Positions 1-17,553 are shown, numbered from the stretch's first letter. The stretch: DNA of 27,361 nt from Anaerolineae bacterium (GCA_015486845.1 WFQU01000007.1:1-27361), one strand, 5' to 3'. Translations and numbers: made by a program. The notes: generated from the sequence alone by a model not told the origin.

Positions 1-214
1 ACCTTGACGTACCCCGCCGCCGTACCGGAATCGAGGCTTTAGCCGGTGGTAGACCCACCAACCCGCCTAAAGGCTGCCTCGCCCGGCGATTAGAAATCGC
101 TGCCACAACTGCGAAACCTGCCTGCGCAGGTTGCATGCTAATCGCCGTAGGGCGATTTCGCAGACGTGGCCGTGACTTTTAGTCGCTGGGCCCAAGTACC
201 GCCATTGTCCGGCG

Positions 215-5271: not shown

Positions 5272-6939
5272 ATGTCAGGTAAAATTTCTGGCCCGAGGGT
5301 CGTTCATCCGCCCCGAGGCACAACGCTACACTGCAAAGGATGGCAGCAAGAAGCTGCTTACCGGATGATCCAACACAATTTAGACCCGGAAGTGGCCGGC
5401 GATCCGGAGCATTTGATCGTTTACGGTGGCCGGGGGAAAGCAGCCCGTAATTGGGAAGCTTTCGACGCGATCCTGCGCACGCTGGAGGAACTGGAAAACA
5501 ACGAAACGCTGCTGATCCAGTCCGGCAAGCCGGTGGCGGTTTTCAAGACCCACCCGGATGCCCCGCGCGTTCTCATCGCCAACTCCAACCTGGTGCCGAA
5601 ATGGGCCACCTGGGAGGTTTTTGACGCATTGGAGAAGAAAGGGCTGATCATGTATGGCCAGATGACCGCCGGTTCCTGGATTTACATCGGCACCCAGGGC
5701 ATCCTCCAGGGCACGTACGAGACCTTGGGTGCGGCGGCCAGCAAAGAGGGGTGGCCCAGTCTGAAAGGAAAATTCGTCCTCACTGCCGGCCTCGGCGAAA
5801 TGGGCGGCGCCCAGCCGTTGGCCATCGCCATGAACGACGGTGTGGGCCTCATCGTGGAGGTCGATCCGCGCCGGGCGCAGCGGCGGTTGGAAACGCGTTA
5901 CGTAGACGAAGTGGTGACCGATTTGGACGAAGCACTGCGCAAAGTGTCCGAGCGCCAGGCTAAGGGGGACGGCTGGTCCATCGGTCTCATCGGCAACGCG
6001 GCGGACGTCTACCCGGAATTGGTGCGGCGCGGCGTCACACCGGATATAGTCACCGACCAAACACCAGCCCATGATCCGGAGATGTACGTGCCCAGCGGTA
6101 TCAGCGCCGTCGAAGCGGAGACGTTGCGCCATACCGACCGGGATCATTACATCCAGATGGCGAAAGCCTCCATGGTGAAGCACGTTCAAGCCATTTTGGC
6201 CATGCAGAAACGGGGCGCAGTAGCGTTCGATTACGGCAACAACCTGCGCCAGGAAGCATACGACATGGGCGTGAAGGATGCTTTCGCCTATCCCGGCTTC
6301 GTGCCGGCCTACATCCGGCCCCTTTTCTGCGAGGGGAAAGGGCCGTTCCGCTGGGTGGCACTCTCCGGCGATCCCGAGGACATCTACGTCACCGACCGGA
6401 TCATCATGGACCTCTTCCCGGAGGACGAGCATTTGGTGCGCTGGATCAAAATGGCGGAGAAACGGGTCGCGTGGCAAGGCTTGCCCTCCCGTATCTGCTG
6501 GTTAGGCTACGGCGACCGGGCGAAAGCGGGGTTAGCATTCAACGAAGCAGTGGCCCGCGGCGAAGTCAAAGCGCCCATCGTCATCGGCCGTGATCATTTG
6601 GACGCCGGTTCCGTGGCCTCACCCAACCGGGAAACAGAAGCAATGCAGGACGGCTCCGACGCCATCGCCGATTGGCCAGTGCTGAATGCGCTGCTCAACG
6701 CCGTGGGCGGCGCGACTTGGATCAGCTTCCACCACGGCGGCGGCGTAGGCATGGGCTACAGCTTGCACGCCGGCATGGTGATCCTCGCCGACGGCACGCC
6801 GGAAGCCGCCAAGCGACTGCAACGGGTACTGACCACGGACCCGGGGCTGGGCGTCGTGCGCCACGCCGATGCGGGTTATCCAGCCGCGATCCAATTCGCT
6901 CGGGAACACGGCATCAAAATTCCGATGCTGGGCCGCTAA
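5272..6939 (+). CDS. hutU: Urocanate hydratase (urocanase)
   Basis: About 555 aa with strong urocanase similarity throughout (NAD-binding [12 protein letters not shown], ...[20 protein letters not shown]..., ...[14 protein letters not shown]...). ATG 5272 follows AAAGGAGA with 6-nt spacing. The track's TTG at 5266 is two codons upstream. Confidence 0.9.
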
Positions 6940-7142
6940 CAATTCGACCTTCTGCTTGCTTTCCCGAGTCGCGGCATAGGTTTGTCACCGCCGGGGAAGC
7001 AAGCGCCTCGCGCTGTTCGTTCCGCCCAATGGCGCAGATGACGTGATTATGGTAAAACAGGAACAGTTCTCGTGATGAGAACGTCCAAGGAGACAGAAAT
7101 TCACGTCAGGATGCGATAAATTATTCCCCCCGGGATAGATCA

Positions 7143-10100
7143 ATGGAACGAAACAGAACGCTCATTTGGATCAGTAGTTTTCTCGTCGGATTTTTAGTGA
7201 CCTTAGCCGTGCTGCTGCTTATTCTAGGCGGCGCGGCGCTGGCTTATGGCAATTTGACACGCGAATTGCCCAAGCCAGATAAATTGATGCAAAAAGTGGC
7301 AGCAAGCTTCGTCAGCGGCAGGATCTACGACCGCCACGGCCAAGTGCTCAGCGAGACGTTCGACCCAAACTTAGGCCGGCGAGAGATCGTGCCGCTCAAA
7401 GCAATTTCGCCTTACCTCATTGCCGCCACCATCGCCACCGAGGATGCCAATTTCTACCAACATCCCGGCTTTGACCCCATGGGCATCGCGCGCGTGTTCT
7501 GGCAGGCCGCCCACAACCAGCGTTTCGTCAGCGGCGGTAGCACCATCACCCAGCAATTGGTGAAAAATGTGCTCCTCTCGCCGGAGCGCACCTGGCAACG
7601 GAAACTCAAAGAAATCGTCTTGGCCATCGAAATCAATCGGCGCTACAAAAAAGAGACGATCCTGGAAATATATCTGAACCAAATTTATTACGGCAACCAC
7701 GCTTACGGCATCGAATCCGCCGCCGAGACCTATTTTGGCAAAAAGGCGGCGGACTTGACACTGGCAGAAGCAGCTTTGCTGGCCGGCCTGCCGCAAGCAC
7801 CTTCGTATTACGATCCTTACACCAATCCACGGCGCGCCAAAGCACGCCAAGAAACCGTGTTGAATTTGATGGTTCGGCACGGCTACTTGACACAAAAGGA
7901 GGCGACTGCGGCGGCAACCGAGAAAATCACGTATGTGCAACCGAAATATGATTTCCAGGCACCACATTTCGTACTCTACGTGCGCCAGCTATTAGAAAAA
8001 GATCCGGATATCGGCCCAGAATTGTTGGACCGCGGCGGTTTGCAAATTTATACCACTTTAGACCTGGATTTGCAGAAAAAAGTGCAGAAAATCGCCCAGG
8101 AGCGGATTGCCAAATTGGCCGGCCACAACGTGAACAACGCCGCGGTGGTGGTCTTGCAGCCCAAAACCGGCGAAATCCTAGTCATGTTAGGCAGCGTGGA
8201 TTACCGCAACGCCGATATCGACGGCCAGATCAACATGGCACTGGTGCCCCGGCAGCCCGGCTCTTCCATCAAGCCCATCACCTATTTAGCTAATTTCGCC
8301 CTAAAAAAGGATTACTGGACGCCGGCCACGCCAATTTTGGATGTCAAAACCGAATTCCCGGACGGCCAAGGAAAACCGCCTTACGTGCCGGTAGATTACG
8401 ATCGCAAAGAACACGGCATCGTGACCGCTCGCGCCGCCTTGGCCAATTCGTATAACATTCCGGCAGTGAAAGCGCTGCAACACATCGGCATCCCCGCGTT
8501 CCTGCGCCTGGCCAAGAAAATGGGCATCACAACACTGACTCGCCCAGACTACGGTCTTTCCCTGACGCTGGGCGGCGGCGAAGTGCCCCTGACCCAAATG
8601 GTCGGTGCGTTTTCGGTGTTGGCCAACGACGGCATTTACCGACAACCCATCGCCATAGAGTGCATCCGCGACCAAAGCGGCCGCTTGCTCAAAGTCTACA
8701 GCCAGCACCCCACCAATCCAGCTTGCACGAAACAAGGGGAGAAGCCGACCGTGAGCTGGTTGGGCCGTCGGAATATGGCTGTGCCACCCCGCCGCGTGGT
8801 CGATCCACAGTACGTCTATTTAATCACGTCTATCCTCAGCGACAACAAAGCCCGGCTGCCCGCCTTCGGCGTCCACAATCCCCTCTACTTGGGACCAGAT
8901 CACCCGGCCGCGGCCAAAACCGGCACAACGAATGACTTTCGGGACAACTGGACTTTAGGCTACACACCCAATCTCGTCGTTGGCGTTTGGGTCGGCAACG
9001 CTGATTATTCTACCATGAAACATATTTCCGGCGTCACAGGCGCCGGCCCTATCTGGCGTGACGTCATGTTGACCGCTTTAGGCAACAAGCCCACGGAGGA
9101 TTTTGCCGTCCCGGTGGGGAAGAACGGTGCCCCATTGGTCGTGCAGAAGCCGGTCTGTCCGCCCAGCGGTATCGAGGCAGGGAACAGTTGTCCGGAAAGC
9201 CGGTTGGAATGGTTCGCCGTTGATCGGCTACCCCCATCGCCAAAAGAAAGCTGGTATCACAAAGTCACTTTGGACAAAGTGAGCGGCCAGTTGGCCGGCC
9301 CTGACTGCCCGGATTCGCTGAAAGAGAGTAAAACGATGCTGTTGGCCCCAGCGCCGTTCGAACAATGGCTACTCGACCACGACCCGGAAAACACGCCCGC
9401 CGCCAAACCGGCGCCGTTCATCACTTGGTTACACAGCCACAATGTGCATATTGCGAAAAAACTGCCCACGGAGATCAGCAAAGGTTGTTTCACGCCGAAG
9501 CTCGCGCTGACGGCGCCGGCCGAAGGGTCGGAAGTCAGCGGGTTAGTGACGCTGAGCGGGTCCATGGACGTTCCTTATTTCGCGTCCTACCGCCTGGAAT
9601 ACGGCGTTTCGGATAATCCCGGCGCTTACGGCCACATTGCCGGGCCCTTCCAGCACCCAATTCACAATGGTGTTTTGGGCATTTGGGACACCCGAATGCT
9701 GTCCAACGGCCCTTACACGCTGCGGTTAGTGGCACGGGACAAAGCAGGCAACGAATACGACACTAAAATACACGTCCAATTGAACCACTTGCTGGAAACG
9801 CCCACGGTCACCGTGACGCCCACCGCCACACCGACGGCCACCGCAACGGTAACATCGACGCCCTCCCCGACTGCGACGCCGACGGTGGCGCTGAAACCGC
9901 TGCCCACCGCCACACCGACAGCGCTGCCGACTTCCACGCCCACCGCCAAGCCGGCTTCAGCCGAGGCGATTATCGATAGCCCGGAGGCCAATGCGCTGTT
10001 AAACACTACTTTTGACGTGTACGGCCGTGTGAACGCTTTTCCTTTTGATCACTATACTGTTAGCGTGGCACAACGTCCCGCTAACGGCTGGACCGTTTTG

Positions 10101-10523
10101 GGGCGCGTAAATCAGCGCGTTATTCATGGCGCCCTGGCACAGGTTGATCCCTCATCTTGGCCGGACGGCGACTACCAATTGCGCTTGGCCGTGTTCTCCA
10201 CCGATAGCAACACGCCAGTGGCTACAACTAGTGTGCCCGTCATTGTCGATCACACGCCGCCTACGGTGGCATGGCAGTCCCCCCACGACGGCGACAGTTT
10301 CAAAGCGGGCAAAGTCATGCTCACGGCAACTGTTTCCGATCCCAACGGCATAGACCAAGTGCGTTTTCGGGTGGATAGTCATGATTTAGGCAGCGCTACG
10401 CACGCGCCTTACCAAATTGGCTGGGTTGCCGAGGCCGGCAAGCACACTTTAGCCGTCTTGGCTTTGGACAAAGCGGGGAACTGGTCCGTTGCGCAGGAAA
10501 TCCACGTGCAGGTGACTCCTTGA
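7143..10523 (+). CDS. Class A penicillin-binding protein (GT51 transglycosylase plus transpeptidase) with a long C-terminal extension
   Basis: N-terminal TM anchor. GT51 motifs (EDANFYQHPGFDP, GGSTITQQLVKN, RKLKE...). Transpeptidase motifs SSIK (SxxK), SYN (SxN) and KTGTT (KTG). After about residue 640 there is a Cys-containing region, a Thr/Pro/Ala linker (TPTVTVTPTATPTATATVTSTPSPTATP...) and at least two further beta-sandwich-like domains. Total length 1126 aa. Confidence 0.9.
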   Translation: MERNRTLIWISSFLVGFLVTLAVLLLILGGAALAYGNLTRELPKPDKLMQKVAASFVSGRIYDRHGQVLSETFDPNLGRREIVPLKAISPYLIAATIATEDANFYQHPGFDPMGIARVFWQAAHNQRFVSGGSTITQQLVKNVLLSPERTWQRKLKEIVLAIEINRRYKKETILEIYLNQIYYGNHAYGIESAAETYFGKKAADLTLAEAALLAGLPQAPSYYDPYTNPRRAKARQETVLNLMVRHGYLTQKEATAAATEKITYVQPKYDFQAPHFVLYVRQLLEKDPDIGPELLDRGGLQIYTTLDLDLQKKVQKIAQERIAKLAGHNVNNAAVVVLQPKTGEILVMLGSVDYRNADIDGQINMALVPRQPGSSIKPITYLANFALKKDYWTPATPILDVKTEFPDGQGKPPYVPVDYDRKEHGIVTARAALANSYNIPAVKALQHIGIPAFLRLAKKMGITTLTRPDYGLSLTLGGGEVPLTQMVGAFSVLANDGIYRQPIAIECIRDQSGRLLKVYSQHPTNPACTKQGEKPTVSWLGRRNMAVPPRRVVDPQYVYLITSILSDNKARLPAFGVHNPLYLGPDHPAAAKTGTTNDFRDNWTLGYTPNLVVGVWVGNADYSTMKHISGVTGAGPIWRDVMLTALGNKPTEDFAVPVGKNGAPLVVQKPVCPPSGIEAGNSCPESRLEWFAVDRLPPSPKESWYHKVTLDKVSGQLAGPDCPDSLKESKTMLLAPAPFEQWLLDHDPENTPAAKPAPFITWLHSHNVHIAKKLPTEISKGCFTPKLALTAPAEGSEVSGLVTLSGSMDVPYFASYRLEYGVSDNPGAYGHIAGPFQHPIHNGVLGIWDTRMLSNGPYTLRLVARDKAGNEYDTKIHVQLNHLLETPTVTVTPTATPTATATVTSTPSPTATPTVALKPLPTATPTALPTSTPTAKPASAEAIIDSPEANALLNTTFDVYGRVNAFPFDHYTVSVAQRPANGWTVLGRVNQRVIHGALAQVDPSSWPDGDYQLRLAVFSTDSNTPVATTSVPVIVDHTPPTVAWQSPHDGDSFKAGKVMLTATVSDPNGIDQVRFRVDSHDLGSATHAPYQIGWVAEAGKHTLAVLALDKAGNWSVAQEIHVQVTP
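9800..9955 (+). repeat. Low-complexity ACN/CCN tandem codon repeats encoding the Thr-Pro-Ala linker of the PBP
   Basis: Visible reiteration of acg/ccc/acc/gcc/aca/ccg units: ...acgcccaccgccacaccgacggccaccgcaacggta.... Confidence 0.7.
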
Positions 10524-10535
10524 GCGAGGAAATTG

Positions 10536-10922
10536 ATGTCGGTTGCGGAAGAGAAGCTATTGATCAGGAGCGATTTGCCTCAGATCGCGGAAGCCCGGCG
10601 CTGGTTCACTGCGCACGTCCGGGATGCTCACTGCGACGACAGTGCCATCCGTGAGATGGAAACGGCGTTGGGTGAAGCATTGGCCAACGTGGTCCGGCAT
10701 GCCTATCGCGATCAGCCGAGCCAACCCATTGACATCACCTTAACCATTGACAGCGAAAAAATAAGCCTCGTCGTTTGTGATCAAGGGGAAGCATTCGCCG
10801 GTCGCCCTCAGCAGCCCGGCAGTTACGGCCTGATCCTGATGGAGCGGCTCACGGATGAGATGCATCGCTATGTGACAGCACGCGGTGACAACTGCTTGCG
10901 GATGGTTAAACACAGCTATTAG
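10536..10922 (+). CDS. Anti-sigma regulatory factor (RsbW/SpoIIAB-like Ser/Thr kinase, GHKL ATPase fold)
   Basis: About 128 aa. The N-box-like EALANVVRHAY motif and a G-rich region (DQGEAF...GSYGLILMERL) match HATPase_c anti-sigma kinases. ATG 10536 follows GAGGAA. It starts 12 nt after the PBP stop. Confidence 0.7.
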   Translation: MSVAEEKLLIRSDLPQIAEARRWFTAHVRDAHCDDSAIREMETALGEALANVVRHAYRDQPSQPIDITLTIDSEKISLVVCDQGEAFAGRPQQPGSYGLILMERLTDEMHRYVTARGDNCLRMVKHSY

Positions 10923-10955
10923 CCGGTTCGCTCGGCAGACTTCTCGCCCACCGGA

Positions 10956-11140
10956 GTACACGGGGAGCGAATTCCCGTACTACATTACAGAAAAGCCTCC
11001 TGAAGGAGACTGATAGGGCCGAACGCTTATTCGGCCGCCGGCGCGAGCGCCGGGCATCTCATGGCGACTGAAAGTCGCGCCGGCAATGGCCTGTGTGCAT
11101 CCACAGGTTGCCTCACAAGGCAAGGTTTTGTTCCCAAAAC
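10956..11140. repeat. Cluster of about eight consecutive short GC-rich hairpins (REP-like or structured RNA)
   Basis: Inverted repeats read directly from the sequence: acggg/cccgt; ctcc/ggag; ggccgaa/ttcggcc; ccggcg/cgccgg; gcgact/agtcgc (loop gaa); cctgtg/cacagg; ttgcct/aggcaa; gttttg/caaaac. Confidence 0.5.
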
Positions 11141-11157
11141 AAATTTTAGTGTATAAT
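11128..11157 (+). promoter_or_regulatory. Putative promoter for the SPFH-TIGR00725 operon
   Basis: TTGTTC (11128-11133), an 18-nt spacer, then TATAAT (11152-11157). It is about 105 nt upstream of ATG 11265. Confidence 0.4.
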
Positions 11158-11264
11158 ATTGCTGGCTGGGCAAGATTAACAAACAGCAAATCTTGTCACA
11201 ACCAAAACGGACGTTAGCCGGAAGGGCTATAACGTCCTTCACGCATCACAAAAGGAGATACACT

Positions 11265-12053
11265 ATGGCAGATGCAATCGGCTTTCTAACCAGCTCTCTA
11301 TTTATCATCATCGTCGTCATCGCGATTCTTACTTCGGCCATCAAGATTGTCCAGGAATACGAACGGGGCGTGATTTTCCGCTTAGGCAGGTTAGTAGGGC
11401 CCAAAGGGCCAGGCTTGTTCCTCATTATTCCCATCGTGGACCGCATGGTCAAAGTAGATTTGCGCGTCGTGACCTTAGACATTCCCGCCCAAGAAGTTAT
11501 AACACGGGACAATGTAACCGTCAAAGTCAACGCTGTAGCCTATTTTAGCATCATTGATCCTTCTTCTGCCATTGTCAAAATAGCCAATTTCCGTTGGGCC
11601 ACTTTACAGATTGCGCAAACCACTTTGCGTAATGTGATCGGCCAGTCGGAGTTAGATGAGTTGCTGGCTCACCGAGAGAAAATAAACCAGCAGTTAGCAC
11701 AGATCATTGATGAAGCAACAGAACCGTGGGGCATCAAAGTATCGAGCGTAGAAGTCAAAGATGTCGAATTACCGGCGTCCATGCAGAAAGCGATGGCGCG
11801 CCAGGCGGAAGCAGAGCGCGAAAAACGGGCCAAAGTCATTCACGCCGAAGGCGAATTTCAGGCATCGCAACGCTTGGCCCAGGCAGCCAAAACGCTGGCC
11901 ACGGAATCGGGCGCTATGCAATTGCGCTATCTGCAAACGCTAACGGAAATATCTTCTAACCAGGGTTCGACCATTGTCTTTCCAGTACCGTTGGATATGA
12001 TGCAAACTTTTAATCATATTTTAGGCTCCAAAGAAGATTCTAAAAAAGAATGA
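11265..12053 (+). CDS. SPFH/band-7 (stomatin/HflK-C-like) membrane protein
   Basis: ATG 11265 follows AAAGGAGATACACT. N-terminal TM helix (FLTSSLFIIIVVIAIL). The SPFH core is recognisable in YERGVIFRLGRLVG...GPGLFLIIPIVDRMVKVDLRVVTLDIP...ITRDNVTVKVNAVAYFSIIDP. C-terminal coiled-coil region (ARQAEAEREKRAKVIHAEGEFQAS). The track start at 11193 adds 24 non-protein-like residues. Confidence 0.85.
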   Translation: MADAIGFLTSSLFIIIVVIAILTSAIKIVQEYERGVIFRLGRLVGPKGPGLFLIIPIVDRMVKVDLRVVTLDIPAQEVITRDNVTVKVNAVAYFSIIDPSSAIVKIANFRWATLQIAQTTLRNVIGQSELDELLAHREKINQQLAQIIDEATEPWGIKVSSVEVKDVELPASMQKAMARQAEAEREKRAKVIHAEGEFQASQRLAQAAKTLATESGAMQLRYLQTLTEISSNQGSTIVFPVPLDMMQTFNHILGSKEDSKKE

Positions 12054-12592
12054 CCACCCGACAACCGATTTATGTTTCGGTTATCGGTAAAGGCCAACGG
12101 CCGGGCGATCCGCCTTTGCCGGAAAATACCGTCAATTTAGCCCGGGAGGTGGGGCGGCTGCTCGCAGAAGCCGGCGCGGTCATGGTCTGTGGCGGACTGG
12201 GTGGCGTGATGGAAGCTGCCGCCCAAGGTGTCGCCGCAGCCGGCGGCGTCAGCATCGGCATCCTGCCCGGCGAGCGTGCCCAAGCCAACTCGTACCTCAC
12301 CTACGCGTTGGCCGGAGGCATCGGTTTCTTGCGGAATCACGTCGTCGTTAACAGCGGGAACGCTGTGATCATGATTGGTGGTGGTAATGGCACGCTACAA
12401 GAAGTAACCATCGCCCATGACGCCCATCGTCCTGTGGTGATCATGGCCGGTAGCGGCGGCTGGGCCGATCGAATCGTGCCGCTGCTTGCCGACGGCTACT
12501 TAGACGAGCGCCGGGAAACAGTGATCCGCGTCGGCTACACACCCCGAGAAGTCGTCGATATCGCTTTACAGCTTGCCAGGGAGATATCATGA
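12050..12592 (+). CDS. TIGR00725-family / LOG-like (SLOG superfamily) Rossmann-fold nucleotide-binding protein
   Basis: 180 aa. Glycine-rich motifs typical of LOG and TIGR00725 (VMVCGGLGGVMEAAAQG; GILP; IMIGGGNGTLQEVT). The start ATG overlaps the SPFH stop (ATGA at 12050-12053), indicating translational coupling. Confidence 0.7.
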   Translation: MTTRQPIYVSVIGKGQRPGDPPLPENTVNLAREVGRLLAEAGAVMVCGGLGGVMEAAAQGVAAAGGVSIGILPGERAQANSYLTYALAGGIGFLRNHVVVNSGNAVIMIGGGNGTLQEVTIAHDAHRPVVIMAGSGGWADRIVPLLADGYLDERRETVIRVGYTPREVVDIALQLAREIS

Positions 12593-12599
12593 GCCTATG

Positions 12600-12830
12600 G
12601 CCTGCCTGTGCAAACAGGCACACCACAGCGGATGAAAGTCGGCCGATAGCCGGTAGCCGTTCGCCGTTAGCGAAAATACAAGCGGACGTTGATGGAGCAC
12701 TAATCGTGGAGCGCTGAAGTTGCGCCGATTAGGCCTGCGGCCAAGCGCCGACCTACGTGGTCGCGACGACGCCGACCTGCGTCGGCGTTCGGCGACACCG
12801 GCTAAAGCCTCGACGCCAGTACTGGGGAAA
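12600..12830. repeat. Intergenic cluster of GC-rich hairpins, including two tandem imperfect copies of a GCCGACCT-containing palindrome
   Basis: tgcctgt-GCAA-acaggca (7-bp stem, 4-nt loop); ggcc-tgc-ggcc; cgacc-tacgt-ggtcg followed by cgccgac-ctgc-gtcggcg; direct repeat of gcgccga. Confidence 0.45.
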
Positions 12831-13001
12831 GTGCCGCACTTTTTTAGCGACGACATCTTCGGGATCATTTTTTGACCATTGCTTTTTATCTGCGTGCGCA
12901 GCCTGTGTTTATCTGCGTCCCAATTTATTTTCAGGGGAGACCCGCTAAAACACGGCGCTGGCCGGGCGCCAAATCTTTCTCAGGGAGAGATATTTTTGAA
13001 G

Positions 13002-14339
13002 ATGAAACGTAAGTTCAATTTGTGGTTTTGGCCGTTTTTACTCTTGTTAATTGTTTTAGCTGCTGTTCTTTTCTGGTGGAAGCCGCGAACGCCATTATCA
13101 ACACTGCACCCCGCTAACGAATACACTTTATACATCGAACCAGCAGCCGGCAAACAACCCATTTTAGACGCGTTGCACAGTGCCAAGAAAAGTGTACGCA
13201 TCGTCGTTTACAATCTGACCGACGAAGATGTCATGAATGCCATGAAAGCATTAGTGAAGCAAGGTGTCTCTGTTAGGCTCATGATCGAAGACAATCCCTA
13301 TGGCGGCAGCTCTCGCAACATCGACGTAGGCAACGAAATGATGGCGGCCGGCGTCAAAGTGAAATGGTCGCCGAAATATGTGCGCTATCTGCACGAAAAA
13401 AGTATCGTCGTGGACGACAAAGTGGCGTATATTATGACCGGCAACTTGACGACCTCCATGATGACCGCCAACCGGGAGTACATTTTGCGCACCACGAACC
13501 CGGCTGTCATCCACGAAATTGGTCGCGTTTTCGAAGGGGATTGGATCAGGAAGCCAGTCGATTTGAGCAATAGTGTATTAGTTTGGTCTCCTGATAACGC
13601 CCGGCCCCGGTTGCTTGCTTTCTTCCGACAGGCCAAAAAGTCCATTTGGTTGGAAGAGCAAAACTCCTCAGACCCGGATGTGCTGTTCGCGTTGAGCAAA
13701 GCGTGCAAGAACGGCGTTGACGTGCGGGTCATCACCAGCCCGCATTTCCCCATCGAGAGCGATTATGACGAGCCCGGCCGCAAACAGTTACGGGAAGCGG
13801 GCTGTCAGGTGCGCTACATCGATTCGCCGTATGTCCACGCGAAAGTGTTCGTTGTGGACGGAAAAATGGCGTTCGTCGGCTCCGAGAACCTGACCAGCAA
13901 TTCTCTGGATAACAACCGGGAATTGGGCATCGCGCTGTACGAACCGGCCATCATCAAACAGATGCAGAAACAGTTTTTAGCCGATTGGGATAAAGGCCGG
14001 GAAGAAGCTATTCCCAAGAACGGCCTGGCCATTCCGGCCCAGGGCTATGTCGATTACCATGACGCCATGAAGTATCTGTATCGAGACGATGTGCCAGTCC
14101 GGCTGACGGTGCAGGCAATTTACAGGACCGATGCTGTAACCTGGCTCATGGGCGATAACGATCAGGATACGAATTTCAAGGTCGTGTTCTTCCCGCGGAC
14201 GTATAGCCAATTTCCAGAAGAACCAGCCAAGTTCTTCAAAGGCAAGACCATCGAGGTGACCGGCCTCATCAAGATTTATCGCGGCTGGCCGGAAGTTATT
14301 GTAGACGACGCCAGCCAGATCAAAGTCGTAAACAAGTGA
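13002..14339 (+). CDS. Phospholipase D superfamily protein with two HKD motifs, an N-terminal TM anchor and a C-terminal OB-fold-like domain (nuclease- or cardiolipin-synthase-like)
   Basis: HKD motif 1 is YLHEKSIVVDD; HKD motif 2 is YVHAKVFVVDGKMAFVGSENLT (HxKxxxxD...GSxN). N-terminal hydrophobic helix FNLWFWPFLLLLIVLAAVLFWW. The C-terminal roughly 110 aa (...GKTIEVTGLIKIYRGWPEVIVDDASQIKVV) resembles bacterial OB-fold (BOF/tRNA_anti-like) domains. The start is probably ATG 13002 (or TTG 12996), with GGGAGAG upstream. The track's extra 41 N-terminal residues look non-coding. Confidence 0.8.
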   Translation: MKRKFNLWFWPFLLLLIVLAAVLFWWKPRTPLSTLHPANEYTLYIEPAAGKQPILDALHSAKKSVRIVVYNLTDEDVMNAMKALVKQGVSVRLMIEDNPYGGSSRNIDVGNEMMAAGVKVKWSPKYVRYLHEKSIVVDDKVAYIMTGNLTTSMMTANREYILRTTNPAVIHEIGRVFEGDWIRKPVDLSNSVLVWSPDNARPRLLAFFRQAKKSIWLEEQNSSDPDVLFALSKACKNGVDVRVITSPHFPIESDYDEPGRKQLREAGCQVRYIDSPYVHAKVFVVDGKMAFVGSENLTSNSLDNNRELGIALYEPAIIKQMQKQFLADWDKGREEAIPKNGLAIPAQGYVDYHDAMKYLYRDDVPVRLTVQAIYRTDAVTWLMGDNDQDTNFKVVFFPRTYSQFPEEPAKFFKGKTIEVTGLIKIYRGWPEVIVDDASQIKVVNK

Positions 14340-14562
14340 GAAAACAACTCAGCCCAACGACTATAACGCACAGCAACGTCTGCAAAATTGCCTTACCCAG
14401 GCAGGTTTCGCAATGGTAGCAGCAATTTCCAATCGCCAGACGAGGTAGGCTGATCAGTTGCTATGGGAGGCAAGATAGATCCGCCATTTCCGTCTTTTTG
14501 CGTCTCTGCGCCCTTGCGTTGAGCTTTTTAGTTCTGGTTTGTTCAGGTTAGGAAGGATTAAA

Positions 14563-14889
14563 ATGTCGGACACACTATTCGATCTATCGGAAATCGGCCG
14601 CATCTTGACAGATGCTGGCTGGGATGTATCTATTCGTGACGAGGTTTCAGCCCGGCGGAGCAATGTGGCCGGCGTGTGGCAATTGTATGTGGACAAAGGC
14701 GGCCGGCTACGACTGCAAATTACTCGGGACACACAGCTACCACACAGCCAGCGCATCGAAAAGAAAGGCCATCAATACCGAGTGCTGCACGAAGGGCGCG
14801 AAATTATCAACATTTTTACAAACATGGATCGTATTTCTGATCTGCCAGAGATATTGCAGACTTTATCGCAATTAGCCGCTCACACTTAA
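14563..14889 (+). CDS. Hypothetical protein (108 aa)
   Basis: ATG 14563 follows AGGAAGGATTAAA. I recognise no family. It sits between the PLD-family gene and comEA on the same strand. Confidence 0.4.
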   Translation: MSDTLFDLSEIGRILTDAGWDVSIRDEVSARRSNVAGVWQLYVDKGGRLRLQITRDTQLPHSQRIEKKGHQYRVLHEGREIINIFTNMDRISDLPEILQTLSQLAAHT

Positions 14890-14903
14890 GTCAAGGTGAA
14901 CTG

Positions 14904-15551
14904 ATGCCAGAAAATTCTCCTTCTGATTCGCCTGCCAGCGGGGAAAAGGCGAAGTTTCTCTGGCTTGCTATCGCTTTCATCATCGGCATGCTGCTGGGTG
15001 CCGGTGTGATGCACTTGTACCAACCACCCGCCGATACACCGCCACTAATCATTGCGACGGCCGCGCCGACCGTGACGCCGCGCCCTTCCGCTACGCCCGG
15101 CCCCATGCATGTTTATGCCAGTGGTGCCGTGCGCAATCCGGCGGTCTACCGCCTGCCGCCGGGGAGCCGTGCCGATGCTCTATTGAAAGCAGCCGGCGGT
15201 CCTACCAACAACGCGGACTTGCGCCATTTGAACTTGGCCGCCCCATTGCACGACGGACAGCAACTATACGTGCCCAGCGTGGACGATGTTTGCCCGCCCA
15301 CTATTACCCTGGAAGCAGAAACCGGCAACGTAACCATTACGGAGATGACGCCAGGCACCATTTCCGGCGGCAAAGTCGATATTAATCACGCCAGCGCCGC
15401 GGAGTTAGCAAAGCTGCCCGGCGTGGGGCCGGCCATGGCGCAACGCATCATCGCCGCCCGGCCGTACAGCAAAATCGAGGATATCAAGCGGGTGCGGGGC
15501 ATCGGCGATAAAACCTTCGCGAAGCTAAAACCGTACATCGTGACGAAATAA
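14904..15551 (+). CDS. comEA: Competence protein ComEA (SLBB domain plus tandem helix-hairpin-helix DNA-binding domain)
   Basis: N-terminal TM helix and a Pro/Thr/Ala linker. SLBB-like segment (VYASGAVRNPAVYRLPPGSRADALLKAAGG...LYVP). C-terminal HhH motifs (INHASAAELAKLPGVGPAMAQRIIAARPYSKIEDIKRVRGIGDKTFAKLKP). AAGGTGAA ribosome-binding site. Confidence 0.8.
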   Translation: MPENSPSDSPASGEKAKFLWLAIAFIIGMLLGAGVMHLYQPPADTPPLIIATAAPTVTPRPSATPGPMHVYASGAVRNPAVYRLPPGSRADALLKAAGGPTNNADLRHLNLAAPLHDGQQLYVPSVDDVCPPTITLEAETGNVTITEMTPGTISGGKVDINHASAAELAKLPGVGPAMAQRIIAARPYSKIEDIKRVRGIGDKTFAKLKPYIVTK

Positions 15552-15578: not shown

Positions 15579-15620
15579 AGAAGTTCAACTTCTTCGAGAA
15601 GTTGAACTTCTCGTCCTTTT
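15579..15620. terminator. Perfect 14-bp-stem palindrome plus T-tract: intrinsic terminator for comEA and probable end of the convergent Cas4-like operon
   Basis: AGAAGTTCAACTTC (15579-15592), loop TTCGA, then GAAGTTGAACTTCT (15598-15611), followed by cgtcctttt. It starts 28 nt after the comEA stop. The same arms recur at 17521-17553. Confidence 0.7.
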
Positions 15621-15675: not shown

Positions 15676-16218
15676 TCACGCCAGCGATTGACCGCAGACA
15701 TGCCGCAACCCGCATTGCCGGCAGCGACGGGGATTGTTGTGGCTGCGGGGGACATCGTCCCGACCAGCCGCGGCGCGCATGGCGTCCATGGTCGCCAGTA
15801 GTTGCGATCTGGCCGCCTCGTCGAATAGCACACGCACATCGCCGCCGGGCTCGCCGACATAATGAATAATGCCATACGGCGGTGTTTGCCCCATCCTTTC
15901 TTCCACTAACAAGCAATAAGCTAACAATTGTAAGCGATGGCTCGCATACGGTCGTCCATTCGCCGGCAAATGACTTGTTTTCACTTCCACCGGAATGAAC
16001 ATGTTGTCATGGTGAATCAGGTAATCCGGCTTGCCGGAGAGCCGGTAGCGCCGGCTACGCAACGGGTGATGCACTTTTTGCCAGGATGCAGTGTCCGCAT
16101 AAACGACCTCTCCGGATGGCAAACCACTCGCACCCCGAATCCGTTTGGCCTGCCGTGACAGGAATCCGGCCAGCAAGAGCGACAGGATCACGCCGGTAAT
16201 CAGCCAAACGGCGTTCAC
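15676..16218 (-). CDS. Cas4/DUF83-like PD-(D/E)XK nuclease, C-terminal part: N-terminal TM anchor, then motifs II and III, QxxxY and a C-x2-C-x5-C iron-sulfur triad
   Basis: TM helix MNAVWLITGVILSLLLAGFL followed by basic residues (positive-inside). GKPDYLIHHDNMFIPVEVKTS gives the D...E-V-K catalytic motifs. QLLAYC matches QhxxY. The C-terminus CRQCGLRHVC has the same spacing as the Cas4 cluster cysteines. GTG start at 16216-16218 follows GGGGAGGCGTACT and overlaps the stop of the upstream ORF (GTGA). Confidence 0.65.
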   Translation of the reverse strand: MNAVWLITGVILSLLLAGFLSRQAKRIRGASGLPSGEVVYADTASWQKVHHPLRSRRYRLSGKPDYLIHHDNMFIPVEVKTSHLPANGRPYASHRLQLLAYCLLVEERMGQTPPYGIIHYVGEPGGDVRVLFDEAARSQLLATMDAMRAAAGRDDVPRSHNNPRRCRQCGLRHVCGQSLA

Positions 16219-16475
16219 AGTACGCCTCCCCGGGCCATGGACCAGACCAGTATCAACAAGAGCAACAAAGCAATGAACAACACTACCCTCGCTGCCTGTT
16301 GATAGCGCTCCCCCCGGCGCACCGAATTTGCGTGCTGTTCATGTTCCTTGATACCGCGCTGAAAAGCAGCCTCGTTAGCCGGCGTTTCGCCACGCACATA
16401 GCGCAGCCACCAAGCGCGATGACAGTAAGCCCAATTGCCGATCTCGCTGGCCGAAAGCCAACCATCTTTGTTCAT
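16215..16475 (-). CDS. Cas4/DUF83-like nuclease, N-terminal part: first cluster Cys plus motif I, then a C-terminal TM anchor
   Basis: LSASEIGNWAYCHRAWWL matches the Cas4 N-terminal SxS-h-x3-YxYCxRxxWL signature. GIKEHEQH resembles the G-x-hHE motif I. C-terminal TM helix VVLFIALLLLLILVW. ATG 16473-16475 follows GGGAGG with a 9-nt spacer. The track start (TTG 16511) is 12 codons upstream without a ribosome-binding site. Confidence 0.55.
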   Translation of the reverse strand: MNKDGWLSASEIGNWAYCHRAWWLRYVRGETPANEAAFQRGIKEHEQHANSVRRGERYQQAARVVLFIALLLLLILVWSMARGGVL

Positions 16476-16643
16476 GAATAAGTGCCTCCCAAGCCAAACA
16501 AGCTGGAACAAAAATAAACACTGATTTCACGTAGATAAATCAGAAAGGATCAGCGAACATCAACGCTATCTGCGTCATCCGCGCCCAAAGTTTAGCCTGG
16601 GCAAGCCAGAACTCATAAGCTGCGCGCAGCAAGAGTAGCTCCA

Positions 16644-17520: not shown

Positions 17521-17553
17521 AGAAGTTCAACTTGTCGGACAAGTTGAACTTCT
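17521..17553. terminator. Second copy of the 14-bp-stem palindrome, immediately downstream of tyrS
   Basis: AGAAGTTCAACTTG, loop TCGGA, then CAAGTTGAACTTCT. Thirteen of 14 arm positions match the 15579-15611 palindrome. It lies 19 nt past the tyrS stop and about 25 nt before the lipoprotein GTG. Confidence 0.6.

What the first reader, a model, noticed from the sequence alone, without database searches (positions are those of the whole stretch)
11265..14339. SPFH/band-7 protein translationally coupled to a TIGR00725/LOG-like (SLOG) protein, followed by a membrane two-HKD PLD-family protein
The SPFH stop and the SLOG start overlap as ATGA, which is tight coupling. SLOG-fold proteins bind nucleotide-derived ligands. 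SPFH proteins organise membrane microdomains or scaffold proteases and effectors.

SPFH is usually partnered with NfeD, and I saw no NfeD here. An SPFH plus SLOG pair is unusual. It could be a membrane-localised nucleotide-sensing or nucleotide-processing module.

The downstream PLD-family gene is the kind of effector found in many conflict systems. However, a roughly 290-nt structured spacer separates it from the pair, so co-regulation is unproven.
Basis: partly seen in the sequence, partly recalled or inferred. Interest (0 to 1): 0.6.

Follow-up and report, generated by a model that had tools for sequence, protein, structure and literature searches.

The report
Stomatin–SLOG operon beside a nuclease–ComEA block
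A membrane-scaffold (stomatin) gene and a small nucleotide-binding-fold (TIGR00725/SLOG) gene form a real operon conserved in one group of Chloroflexota, while the neighbouring PLD gene looks like an outward-facing nuclease that travels with the DNA receptor ComEA; this is an undescribed but modest gene pairing, not a defence system.

Summary
A stomatin-type SPFH gene (11265-12053) overlaps a TIGR00725/SLOG gene (12050-12592) by ATGA, and a two-HKD PLD gene follows at 13002-14339.

The pairing is conserved, but only in one clade. Band_7 lies directly upstream of the SLOG gene in 7 of 7 distinct genome contexts sampled among SLOG homologues of at least 51% identity (Chloroflexota by named homologues). 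It is upstream in 0 of 49 other TIGR00725 loci, where enolase and Pth are the usual neighbours.

The SLOG protein belongs to the TM1055 / Moco-carrier branch and fails the canonical LOG models. It keeps the Arg and Glu that align with the LOG catalytic residues.

The PLD is not an effector of the pair. It is outward-facing (homologues carry lipoprotein signals), has a C-terminal beta-rich, probably OB-fold domain, and forms a PLD / small protein / ComEA block. That block follows the stomatin gene even where the SLOG gene is absent.

The spacer is a lineage-specific ~350-nt expansion, not a significant structure. No defence-model or mobile-element signal was found.

Verdict: a real, lineage-specific stomatin operon with nucleotide- and DNA-related partners. 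Any physical link is unproven. Interest is modest.

The parts
11153..11158 (+). Possible -10 hexamer (TATAAT) for the stomatin-SLOG transcript, 107 nt upstream of the stomatin ATG
   Evidence: Read directly from the sequence. The consensus scan did not list a plus-strand promoter here because the -35 match is poor. Inference only.
11265..12053 (+). Stomatin/slipin-type SPFH gene (262 aa) with one N-terminal membrane helix, predicted to face the cytoplasm
   Evidence: PF01145 E 1.8e-41. Matches human stomatin at 8e-75, PH1511 at 2e-62 and QmcA at 3e-44. It is 69-78% identical to the SPFH genes of the related pairs. Orientation is inferred from the charge distribution around the helix and from QmcA (PMC10434171).
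12050..12053 (+). ATGA overlap of the stomatin stop and the SLOG start (translational coupling)
   Evidence: Seen in the sequence. The same -4 overlap occurs in L097. Other relatives have gaps of 5, 19, 20, 90 and 634 nt.
12050..12592 (+). TIGR00725 / SLOG cluster-4 protein (180 aa), soluble, of the TM1055 / Moco-carrier branch
   Evidence: TIGR00725 scores 134.3 bits against a cutoff of 106.9. PF18306 E 1.5e-35. PDB 1RCU matches at 1.8e-28 and the Moco carrier proteins at about 1e-15. The AF2 model has pLDDT 95.5; TM-score is 0.87 to 1RCU, about 0.8 to the Moco carrier proteins and about 0.7 to LOGs. R95 and E118 align with the LOG catalytic Arg and Glu and are invariant in 45 sequences.
12593..13001 (.). 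Non-conserved 409-nt spacer. Holds a fragment of a dispersed repeat (12796-12827) and a weak terminator-like hairpin (12954-12970)
   Evidence: Fold z-score -1.9. No Rfam match. Repeat fragment. Hairpin. The relative L006/L008 has about 60 nt here.
13002..14339 (+). Signal-anchored, outward-facing two-HKD PLD-family enzyme with a C-terminal beta-rich, probably OB-fold domain (residues ~345-445); probable nuclease
   Evidence: Two PLDc_2 domains. HKD residues invariant. It falls below the cutoffs of the cardiolipin synthase, DrmC and NucT models. Homologues carry PF01336/PF13742 OB-fold hits and lipoprotein signals. The window protein's C-terminus matches PF01336 only weakly, E 0.005. AF2 model pLDDT 92; fold matches include a bacterial PLD and the PLD3/PLD4 ssDNA exonucleases.
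14563..14889 (+). Conserved small soluble protein (108 aa) of unknown family between the PLD and ComEA genes
   Evidence: No Pfam, NCBIfam or PADLOC hit. Conserved at 72% in L006 and 31% in L099, phmmer 2e-11.
14904..15551 (+). ComEA-type DNA receptor (SLBB + HhH domains) with an N-terminal membrane helix
   Evidence: PF12836 2e-19, PF10531 2e-10, TIGR01259 2e-19. Follows the stomatin gene in L099 and L103 as well.
15579..15611 (+). 33-nt perfect-stem palindrome with a T-rich tail; likely end of the gene string
   Evidence: Terminator-like site with 15 pairs. A second copy lies at 17521-17553.

Best explanation
This is a stomatin-led gene string from a genome that named homologues place in Chloroflexota, probably Anaerolineae.

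**Shown**

- Gene 1 is a slipin/stomatin SPFH protein. Gene 2 is a soluble TIGR00725 protein of the TM1055 / Moco-carrier branch of the SLOG fold. Its start overlaps the stomatin stop.
- The two genes form a vertically inherited pair in one clade. The flanking genes differ between genomes while the pair is kept.
- The PLD gene is a separate unit. It encodes an outward-facing two-HKD enzyme with a C-terminal beta-rich, probably OB-fold domain. It travels with a 108-aa protein and ComEA. That trio follows the stomatin gene even in a genome with no SLOG gene.

**Inferred**

- The stomatin ring faces the cytoplasm, like QmcA, and delimits a patch of membrane.
- The genes recruited downstream of it in different lineages are ComEA, the HKD enzyme, the SLOG protein and, in sister genomes, PsuG. 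All of them deal with DNA or nucleotide 5'-phosphates. The string therefore most likely serves binding and cutting of external DNA and handling of nucleotides at the membrane.
- The SLOG protein keeps the LOG-type catalytic Arg and Glu. It would act on the cytoplasmic side as a binder or N-glycosidase of a phosphorylated nucleotide-like ligand.
- The ATGA overlap ties its synthesis to that of stomatin. It sits where NfeD sits in the E. coli qmcA-ybbJ operon.

It is not a defence system.
For: **The pair is conserved.**
- Band_7 lies directly upstream of the SLOG gene on the same strand in L003 (the window's own contig), L006, L009, L012, L096, L097 and L098. The flanking genes differ between most of them.
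- SPFH and SLOG identities sort the loci into the same two groups, as expected for co-inheritance.
The method was validated on three contigs that were looked up directly.

**The link is clade-specific.**
- SPFH is found in 0 of 49 non-clade loci with at least 800 nt upstream, and 0 of 69 with at least 800 nt on either side.

**Stomatin is the anchor of the string.**
- L099: Band_7, PLD, 115-aa protein, ComEA, with no SLOG gene.
- L103: Band_7 then ComEA directly.
- L101: NfeD then Band_7.
- Six SPFH/PLD homologue pairs also share contig lengths.

**The SLOG protein.** PsuG follows the SLOG gene in L009 and L097.

**The PLD protein.**
- HKD motifs are invariant.
- Homologues carry OB-fold Pfam hits, and the window protein's C-terminus matches PF01336 weakly.
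- Homologues carry lipoprotein signals.
- The predicted fold matches the PLD3/PLD4 exonucleases.

Against: - No experiment or computation here shows that stomatin and the SLOG protein touch.
- The adjacency could simply be inherited gene order. The sampled genomes fall into only two subclades, with SPFH 69-95% identical between them.
- The coupling is not kept everywhere. Gaps run from -4 to 634 nt.
- In other lineages TIGR00725 sits next to housekeeping genes (enolase, Pth) with no obvious functional tie, so conserved neighbours of this family need not mean shared function.
- Nuclease activity of the PLD is inferred only. The same fold includes phospholipases and cardiolipin synthases.
- The window's own OB-fold hit is below the Pfam cutoff.
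- A weak terminator-like hairpin and about 350 nt of extra DNA lie between the SLOG and PLD genes.
- The SPFH-side sample is only three look-ups.
Confidence: 0.5

Rival explanations
1. Inherited gene order only. The SLOG gene landed downstream of the stomatin gene in an ancestor of this clade and is co-transcribed with it. The SLOG protein works independently in nucleotide or sugar-phosphate salvage. The PLD / small protein / ComEA block is likewise just a neighbour.
For: - TIGR00725 has different, housekeeping neighbours in other lineages: enolase in 15-16 loci, Pth in 7-9, and a PfkB/SIS/HAD operon in L014.
- The coupling is variable, and a 634-nt spacer splits the pair in L096.
- Stomatin genes at 70-75% identity occur without the SLOG gene.
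- The SLOG protein evolves faster than the SPFH protein.
Against: - The pair is kept while the flanking genes differ between genomes.
- Every recurrent downstream partner of this stomatin is DNA- or nucleotide-related (ComEA, HKD enzyme, SLOG, PsuG). Drift alone would not be expected to give that.
Confidence: 0.3
2. The SLOG protein is a molybdenum-cofactor carrier or storage protein, like the Chlamydomonas and Rippkaea Moco carrier proteins. It would hold Moco near the membrane.
For: - After TM1055, the Moco carrier proteins are its closest solved relatives: about 1e-15 by sequence, and TM-score about 0.8 normalised to the query or about 0.88 to the target.
- A molybdate-type ABC transporter (TOBE ATPase plus an SBP_bac_11 binding protein) lies about 0.8 kb from the pair in L012 and L098.
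Against: - Identity to the Moco carrier proteins is only 26-28%.
- The transporter context is really one observation, because the two genomes are close (SPFH 95% identical) and the genes are on the opposite strand.
- No Moco-biosynthesis genes or molybdoenzymes are seen near the window's pair.
- The LOG-type Arg and Glu are invariant in the family. A published comparison says the catalytic residues are not conserved in Moco carrier proteins (PMC5379747).
Confidence: 0.1
3. One reading: a membrane-localised nucleotide-sensing conflict module. The SLOG protein senses or makes a nucleotide signal, SPFH is the scaffold, and the PLD is the effector.
For: - Some SLOG families and PLD nucleases do occur in defence systems (PMC6459960).
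- The PLD hits DrmC models.
- A Cas4-like gene lies about 1.3 kb downstream of the string's last gene.
Against: - No PADLOC model hits the SPFH protein. The SLOG protein gives only a 52-residue PsyrA match.
- The DrmC NCBIfam score of 82.6 is below its cutoff of 133, and no other DISARM gene is present.
- The PLD catalytic domain is predicted to be outside the cell, where it cannot attack invading DNA inside it.
- The PLD accompanies ComEA and stomatin in a genome with no SLOG gene.
- TIGR00725 is on 3 of 72,556 plasmids and in 0 phage records.
- The neighbours are housekeeping genes.
- SPFH is 69-95% conserved between the sampled genomes, which is not the rapid turnover I would expect of defence genes.
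Confidence: 0.05

Closest known systems
NfeD-stomatin operons (P. horikoshii PH1510/PH1511; E. coli qmcA-ybbJ)
   Same: The SPFH gene is of the same subfamily. It matches PH1511 at 2e-62 and QmcA at 3e-44. It is tightly linked on the same strand to a partner gene. In E. coli the partner lies downstream of the SPFH gene, where the SLOG gene lies here (PMC10434171).
   Different: The partner is a soluble Rossmann-like SLOG protein. NfeD is a membrane protein with an OB-fold domain, with or without a ClpP-type protease domain. No NfeD is present in the window. A 75%-identical stomatin in L101 still has the canonical NfeD.
TIGR00725 family: Thermotoga TM1055 (PDB 1RCU) and Moco carrier proteins (2IZ5, 6Y01)
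   Same: The protein scores above the TIGR00725 cutoff. It is 39% identical to 1RCU with TM-score 0.87, including the C-terminal GxGGWxDR...YLDxRR extension.
   Different: TM1055 has no assigned function. Moco binding has been shown only for the algal and cyanobacterial proteins, which are 26-28% identical. None of these is reported next to an SPFH gene: full-text searches found no paper mentioning TIGR00725, and none linking SLOG with SPFH.
LOG cytokinin-riboside 5'-monophosphate phosphoribohydrolases and PpnN
   Same: Same fold, with TM-score about 0.7. The GGxGxM and GGxGTxxE glycine loops are present. R95 and E118 align with the catalytic Arg and Glu of the type II LOGs (PMC5379747).
   Different: It falls below the LOG family cutoffs: TIGR00730 scores 49.9 against 96, and NF058542 scores 26 against 300. 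The first Pro of PGGxGTxxE is Gly. The substrate is unknown.
HKD nucleases: PLD3/PLD4 (type II membrane ssDNA 5' exonucleases), Nuc, H. pylori NucT
   Same: A two-HKD catalytic core on a single N-terminal membrane anchor with the catalytic domain on the non-cytoplasmic side. PLD3/PLD4 are among the best fold matches. NucT models hit at 1e-13 to 6e-15. ComEA is two genes downstream, and I recall that NucT is tied to natural transformation.
   Different: Identity is only 13-19%, and the protein is below every named model's cutoff. The additional C-terminal beta-rich, probably OB-fold domain is absent from those enzymes. Activity is untested.
SLOG-containing nucleotide-signalling defence systems (Thoeris ThsA; systems of Burroughs et al. 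2015)
   Same: Same fold superfamily. The idea that SLOG domains bind nucleotide-derived ligands comes from these systems (PMC6459960).
   Different: It belongs to a different SLOG family (cluster 4 / TIGR00725). There is no signal-generating enzyme, no fused effector, no defence neighbours and no mobile-element association.

Membership tests
Stomatin/slipin (SPFH1) proteins | SPFH/Band_7 domain with close similarity to stomatin, preceded by an N-terminal membrane segment | tested here: met
   PF01145 E 1.8e-41. Human stomatin 8e-75, PH1511 2e-62. Hydrophobic residues 7-27 are visible in the translation.
Stomatin/slipin (SPFH1) proteins | NfeD partner gene in the same operon (typical but not universal: 229 of 353 in PMC2636767) | tested here: not met
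   No NfeD homologue in the 27-kb window or in the called genes within 10 kb on either side.
Stomatin/slipin (SPFH1) proteins | Assembly into a large membrane-attached ring or cage | not testable with these tools
   Only single chains can be modelled here. Inferred from the solved stomatin and QmcA oligomers listed.
TIGR00725 / SLOG cluster 4 (PF18306) | Score above the curated family cutoffs | tested here: met
   TIGR00725 scores 134.3 against 106.9. PF18306 scores 122.5 against 26.3.
TIGR00725 / SLOG cluster 4 (PF18306) | Rossmann-like SLOG fold closest to TM1055 | tested here: met
   AF2 model pLDDT 95.5; TM-score to 1RCU is 0.87 (query) / 0.92 (target), rmsd 1.9 A.
Canonical LOG phosphoribohydrolase | Score above the LOG family models (TIGR00730, NF058542) | tested here: not met
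   49.9 against a cutoff of 96.35, and 26 against 300.
Canonical LOG phosphoribohydrolase | PGGxGTxxE motif with the catalytic Glu, plus the catalytic Arg | tested here: inconclusive
   The motif reads GGGNGTLQE, with Gly in place of Pro. E118 and R95 align with the catalytic residues of Tt1465 and ScLOGII and are invariant in the family alignment. Activity is untested.
Molybdenum cofactor carrier protein | Binds and protects Moco | not testable with these tools
   Only 26-28% identity and TM-score about 0.8 to 2IZ5 and 6Y01.
PLD superfamily, two-HKD enzymes | Two HxK(x)4D motifs in two PLDc_2 domains | tested here: met
   H131/K133/D138 and H279/K281/D286 are invariant in 43 sequences. PF13091 is matched twice, E 2e-50.
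Cardiolipin synthase | Score above the Cls equivalog cutoffs | tested here: not met
   TIGR04265 scores 81.6 against 290. PRK12452 scores 76 against 787.
DISARM DrmC | Score above the DrmC cutoff, and presence of the other DISARM genes | tested here: not met
   NF038319 scores 82.6 against 133. No helicase, methylase or DUF1998 gene is nearby.
HKD nuclease (Nuc/NucT/PLD3-like) | Nucleic-acid substrate | not testable with these tools
   Indirect evidence only: OB-fold Pfam hits in homologues, a weak hit in the window protein, the ComEA neighbour, and PLD3/PLD4 fold matches.
Known anti-phage defence systems (PADLOC) | Component models hit and co-occur | tested here: not met
   SPFH has no hit. 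SLOG has one 52-residue PsyrA hit. The PLD hits DrmC models only.

The most novel reading that the evidence does not exclude
The stomatin ring is the organising centre of a previously unrecognised Chloroflexota apparatus for taking up or scavenging external DNA. ComEA and the lipid-anchored HKD/OB nuclease would be corralled in the ring's membrane patch on the outside. The TIGR00725 protein (and PsuG in sister genomes) would be held under the dome on the inside to process the incoming nucleotides. That would give both TIGR00725 and an NfeD-less bacterial stomatin their first defined function.
Probability: 0.1. Interest if true: 0.6.

Novelty: new variant of a known kind. Interest (0 to 1): 0.3.

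Why it matters
Bacterial stomatins and TIGR00725 proteins are both widespread, and neither has a settled function. A conserved, translationally coupled pairing gives a concrete, testable partner for each: does the SLOG protein bind the stomatin ring, and what ligand does it hold or cleave?

Different lineages place ComEA, an outward-facing HKD enzyme with a probable OB-fold domain, the SLOG protein or PsuG behind the same stomatin gene. That points to a DNA and nucleotide theme that could guide experiments.

The practical gain is corrective. The PLD here should not be counted as a defence effector, and the locus should not be listed as a candidate conflict system.

Tried and rejected
- **Rfam.** Searched 10800-15000 at E up to 1, then the whole window and L096 at gathering thresholds. 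Nothing was found, so the spacer is not a known riboswitch or small RNA. No tRNA genes either.
- **Spacer fold.** Not significantly more stable than shuffled sequence, z -1.9.
- **PADLOC.** No defence assignment.
- **Genome-collection scan with the single SLOG protein.** The metagenome scan with an alignment gave 80 loci, all outside the SPFH-linked clade.
- **Cluster-member look-up.** Gave no organism names. Taxonomy therefore rests on named homologues, which are Chloroflexi/Anaerolineae.
- **Literature.** No paper mentions TIGR00725. The one paper containing both SLOG and SPFH does not link them. Burroughs et al. 2015 is not held in the library.
- **Fusion proteins.** No SPFH-SLOG fusion appears in the Pfam columns of the top 120 hits of either search.
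- **PLD inserted into a repeat element.** The repeat pieces that flank the PLD gene are in the wrong order for this, so they are read as separate partial copies.
- **Base composition.** Does not mark the SLOG gene as foreign. Its higher GC fits its Gly/Ala-rich sequence, and its GC3 of 0.66 is like its neighbours'.
- **Complex prediction.** A stomatin-SLOG complex could not be modelled, because the tool takes single chains only.

Full report
**1. What is in the sequence**

The SPFH gene runs 11265-12053. Its ATG is preceded by aaaaggag. The 262-aa product matches PF01145 at E 1.8e-41.

The SLOG gene starts at 12050, inside the SPFH stop codon (ATGA), and ends at 12592. Its 180-aa product scores 134.3 bits on TIGR00725 against a cutoff of 106.9. 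It matches PF18306 (SLOG cluster 4) at E 1.5e-35.

The PLD gene is best started at ATG 13002. Both its ribosome-binding site and its ATG align with those of a 75%-identical relative. The 445-aa product has two PLDc_2 domains. Both HKD triads are invariant across 43 homologues.

The true SLOG-PLD gap is therefore 409 nt. No NfeD homologue exists in the 27-kb window or among the called genes within 10 kb on either side. The window matches a 63-kb metagenome scaffold and an NCBI metagenome-assembled genome. Named homologues of all three proteins come from Chloroflexota, mostly Anaerolineae.

**2. Is the SPFH-SLOG adjacency conserved?**

It is, but only in one clade.

I looked up seven SLOG homologues of 51-100% identity. 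All of them carry a 'PG(D/E)PPLP' loop. In every case a Band_7 gene lies directly upstream on the same strand: L003 (the window's own contig), L006, L009, L012, L096, L097 and L098. The flanking genes differ between most of them.

| Measure | Result |
|---|---|
| SPFH-SLOG junction across the seven loci | -4, 5, 90, 20, 634, -4, 19 nt |
| SPFH identity between loci | 69-95% |
| SLOG identity between loci | 51-81% |

Both proteins sort the loci into the same two groups, as expected for co-inheritance.

About 11 more SLOG homologues share an exact contig length with a top SPFH homologue. Some of these contigs are only 2.6-4 kb long. The trick was validated on three contigs that I looked up directly.

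Outside the clade the link disappears.
- Two nearby SLOG homologues sit in a PfkB/SIS/HAD operon and next to mraZ.
- Of 84 further TIGR00725 loci, 49 have at least 800 nt upstream of the gene and none has an SPFH gene, even at E 0.01.
- In those loci the commonest neighbours are enolase downstream (15-16 loci) and peptidyl-tRNA hydrolase upstream (7-9 loci).
- TIGR00725 is found on 3 of 72,556 plasmids and in no phage record.

**3. What the stomatin gene is linked to**

I looked up three stomatin homologues of 70-75% identity that are not on SLOG contigs.
- L099: Band_7, then PLD (49% identical to the window's), then a 115-aa protein (homologous to the window's 108-aa protein, 2e-11), then ComEA. 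There is no SLOG gene.
- L103: Band_7, then ComEA directly.
- L101: the canonical NfeD, then Band_7.

Six SPFH/PLD homologue pairs also share contig lengths, including contigs of only 4.7-4.8 kb.

So the stomatin gene is the constant element. Different lineages place the SLOG gene, the PLD / small protein / ComEA block, both, or NfeD beside it. In two sister genomes PsuG (Pfam Indigoidine_A, which I recall as pseudouridine-5'-phosphate glycosidase) follows the SLOG gene by 11-35 nt.

**4. The proteins**

*Stomatin.* It is a close relative of human stomatin (8e-75), PH1511 (2e-62) and QmcA (3e-44). QmcA faces the cytoplasm, and qmcA lies upstream of its NfeD-like partner ybbJ (PMC10434171). The window protein has a nearly uncharged N-terminus before its helix and K/R residues after it. 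I infer the same orientation.

*SLOG.* Its nearest solved relatives are listed below (sequence E-values; TM-scores, normalised to the query).

| Relative | Sequence E-value | TM-score |
|---|---|---|
| TM1055 (1RCU) | 1.8e-28 | 0.87 |
| Moco carrier proteins (6Y01, 2IZ5) | ~1e-15 | ~0.8 |
| LOG enzymes | 7e-12 to 2e-3 | ~0.7 |
| DprA | not matched | ~0.65 |

The AF2 model has pLDDT 95.5. The protein fails the LOG family cutoffs. R95 and E118 nonetheless align with the catalytic Arg and Glu of type II LOGs (their roles are described in PMC5379747). Both residues are invariant in 45 family members. An enzyme role is therefore possible but unproven.

*PLD.* The evidence points to an outward-facing nuclease.
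- Homologues are confined to Chloroflexota.
- At least 20 of 43 carry a lipoprotein signal by a strict pattern, and more do by eye. Many have Pro/Thr-rich linkers. The window protein has a KRK-plus-helix signal anchor.
- Many homologues have precomputed OB-fold hits (PF01336, PF13742). The window's C-terminus hits PF01336 weakly, E 0.005.
- The AF2 model (pLDDT 92) shows a beta-rich domain at residues 345-445.
- Fold matches are a bacterial PLD, the PLD3/PLD4 single-stranded-DNA exonucleases, PPK1 and poxvirus F13.
- It falls below the cutoffs for cardiolipin synthase, DrmC and NucT.

Taken with its ComEA neighbour, an outward-facing nuclease is the best reading. This is inferred, not shown.

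**5. The spacer**

The 409 nt between the SLOG and PLD genes fold no better than 5 of 100 shuffled sequences, z -1.9. They match no Rfam family. The closest relative has about 60 nt at this position.

The spacer contains an 18-32-nt piece of a dispersed repeat. A fuller copy of that repeat lies at the window's start, and another piece lies just after the PLD gene. The spacer also holds a weak terminator-like hairpin at 12954-12970.

It is lineage-specific extra DNA. Whether transcription reads through it is unknown.

**6. Interpretation**

*Shown.* The stomatin-TIGR00725 operon is real and specific to one clade. The PLD / small protein / ComEA block is separate and is linked to the stomatin gene independently of the SLOG gene.

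*Inferred.* A cytoplasm-facing stomatin ring delimits a membrane patch. The partner genes share a DNA and nucleotide theme. The SLOG protein acts on a phosphorylated nucleotide-like ligand on the inner side, with its synthesis tied to stomatin's through the overlap.

I put about 0.5 on this package and about 0.35-0.4 on the functional-link part alone. The main rival, at 0.3, is inherited gene order with no specific functional tie. It is supported by the housekeeping neighbours of TIGR00725 elsewhere and by the variable junctions. A Moco-carrier role (0.1) and the conflict-system reading (0.05) are less likely, for the reasons given under the rival explanations.

**7. Novelty and score**

Each protein belongs to a known family. 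An SPFH operon with a partner gene is a known kind of arrangement. A TIGR00725 partner, and the recurrent ComEA and HKD-enzyme neighbours, do not appear in the literature I could search.

The association is narrow, has no demonstrated mechanism, and would not greatly surprise a specialist. Hinderhofer et al. 2009 already found that about a third of SPFH1 genes lack NfeD in the operon (PMC2636767).

Novelty: new variant of a known kind. Interest: 0.3.

Noticed in passing
window 17-124 (minus orientation), 12796-12827, 14398-14451: A short dispersed intergenic repeat. Positions 71-124 match 14398-14451 (54 nt, 83%) and 17-48 match 12796-12827 (32 nt, 18 of them exact). Pieces therefore lie on both sides of the PLD gene, with a fuller copy at the window's start. 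Possibly REP- or MITE-like.
   Followed up: partly
window 15579-15611 and 17521-17553: A 33-nt near-perfect palindrome (AGAAGTTCAACTTCT...AGAAGTTGAACTTCT) occurs twice. The two copies bracket the Cas4-like gene and the gene for a ~260-280-aa protein of unknown function. The first copy looks like a terminator after ComEA.
   Followed up: no
window 15676-16511 (minus strand): A Cas4-like PD-(D/E)XK nuclease appears split into two ORFs that overlap by 4 nt. The 98-aa ORF (16215-16511) matches Cas4 N-termini and the 180-aa ORF (15676-16218) matches Cas4 C-termini. I saw no CRISPR array or other cas genes nearby.
   Followed up: no
L096 4367-5000: In one relative a 634-nt spacer separates the stomatin and SLOG genes. 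By eye it contains internal direct repeats (two ~55-nt GGGGCGAGAACG...GGACCCGTCCGCC units), and it has no Rfam match. The pair survives an insertion between the two genes.
   Followed up: partly
L016-L095 (metagenome TIGR00725 loci): Outside the stomatin-linked clade, TIGR00725 genes are most often followed by enolase (15-16 loci) and preceded by peptidyl-tRNA hydrolase (7-9 loci). V-type ATPase subunit A is nearby in 5 loci. This is an undescribed conserved placement for a family with no assigned function.
   Followed up: partly
L009 6576-7538; L097 5582-6505; L012 and L098 ~6340-9020: PsuG (Indigoidine_A) directly follows the SLOG gene in two sister genomes. A molybdate-type ABC transporter (TOBE ATPase, permease, SBP_bac_11) lies ~0.8 kb away on the opposite strand in two others. 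These hint at nucleotide salvage and at Moco respectively.
   Followed up: no
L065 310-1468: A short-form TIGR00725 gene is directly followed by a ComEA homologue (2e-24) in an unrelated soil metagenome contig. This is a second, independent SLOG-ComEA neighbourhood.
   Followed up: no
window 14563-14889; L006 8046-8372; L099 6220-6567: A conserved small soluble protein of 108-115 aa with no family assignment always sits between the HKD enzyme gene and the ComEA gene. It might be an inhibitor or chaperone of the enzyme.
   Followed up: partly
window 7143-10922: A class A PBP of 1126 aa has a long C-terminal extension with Thr/Pro-rich linkers and Ig-like (Big) domains. It is followed 9 nt later by an RsbW-like HATPase_c_2 anti-sigma-type kinase gene.
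   Followed up: no
L101 4811-5077: In the NfeD-stomatin locus an 88-aa protein with a near-threshold DUF4177 match (E 3.7e-5, 24.3 bits against a cutoff of 25) follows the stomatin gene by 18 nt. It is another small downstream partner.
   Followed up: no
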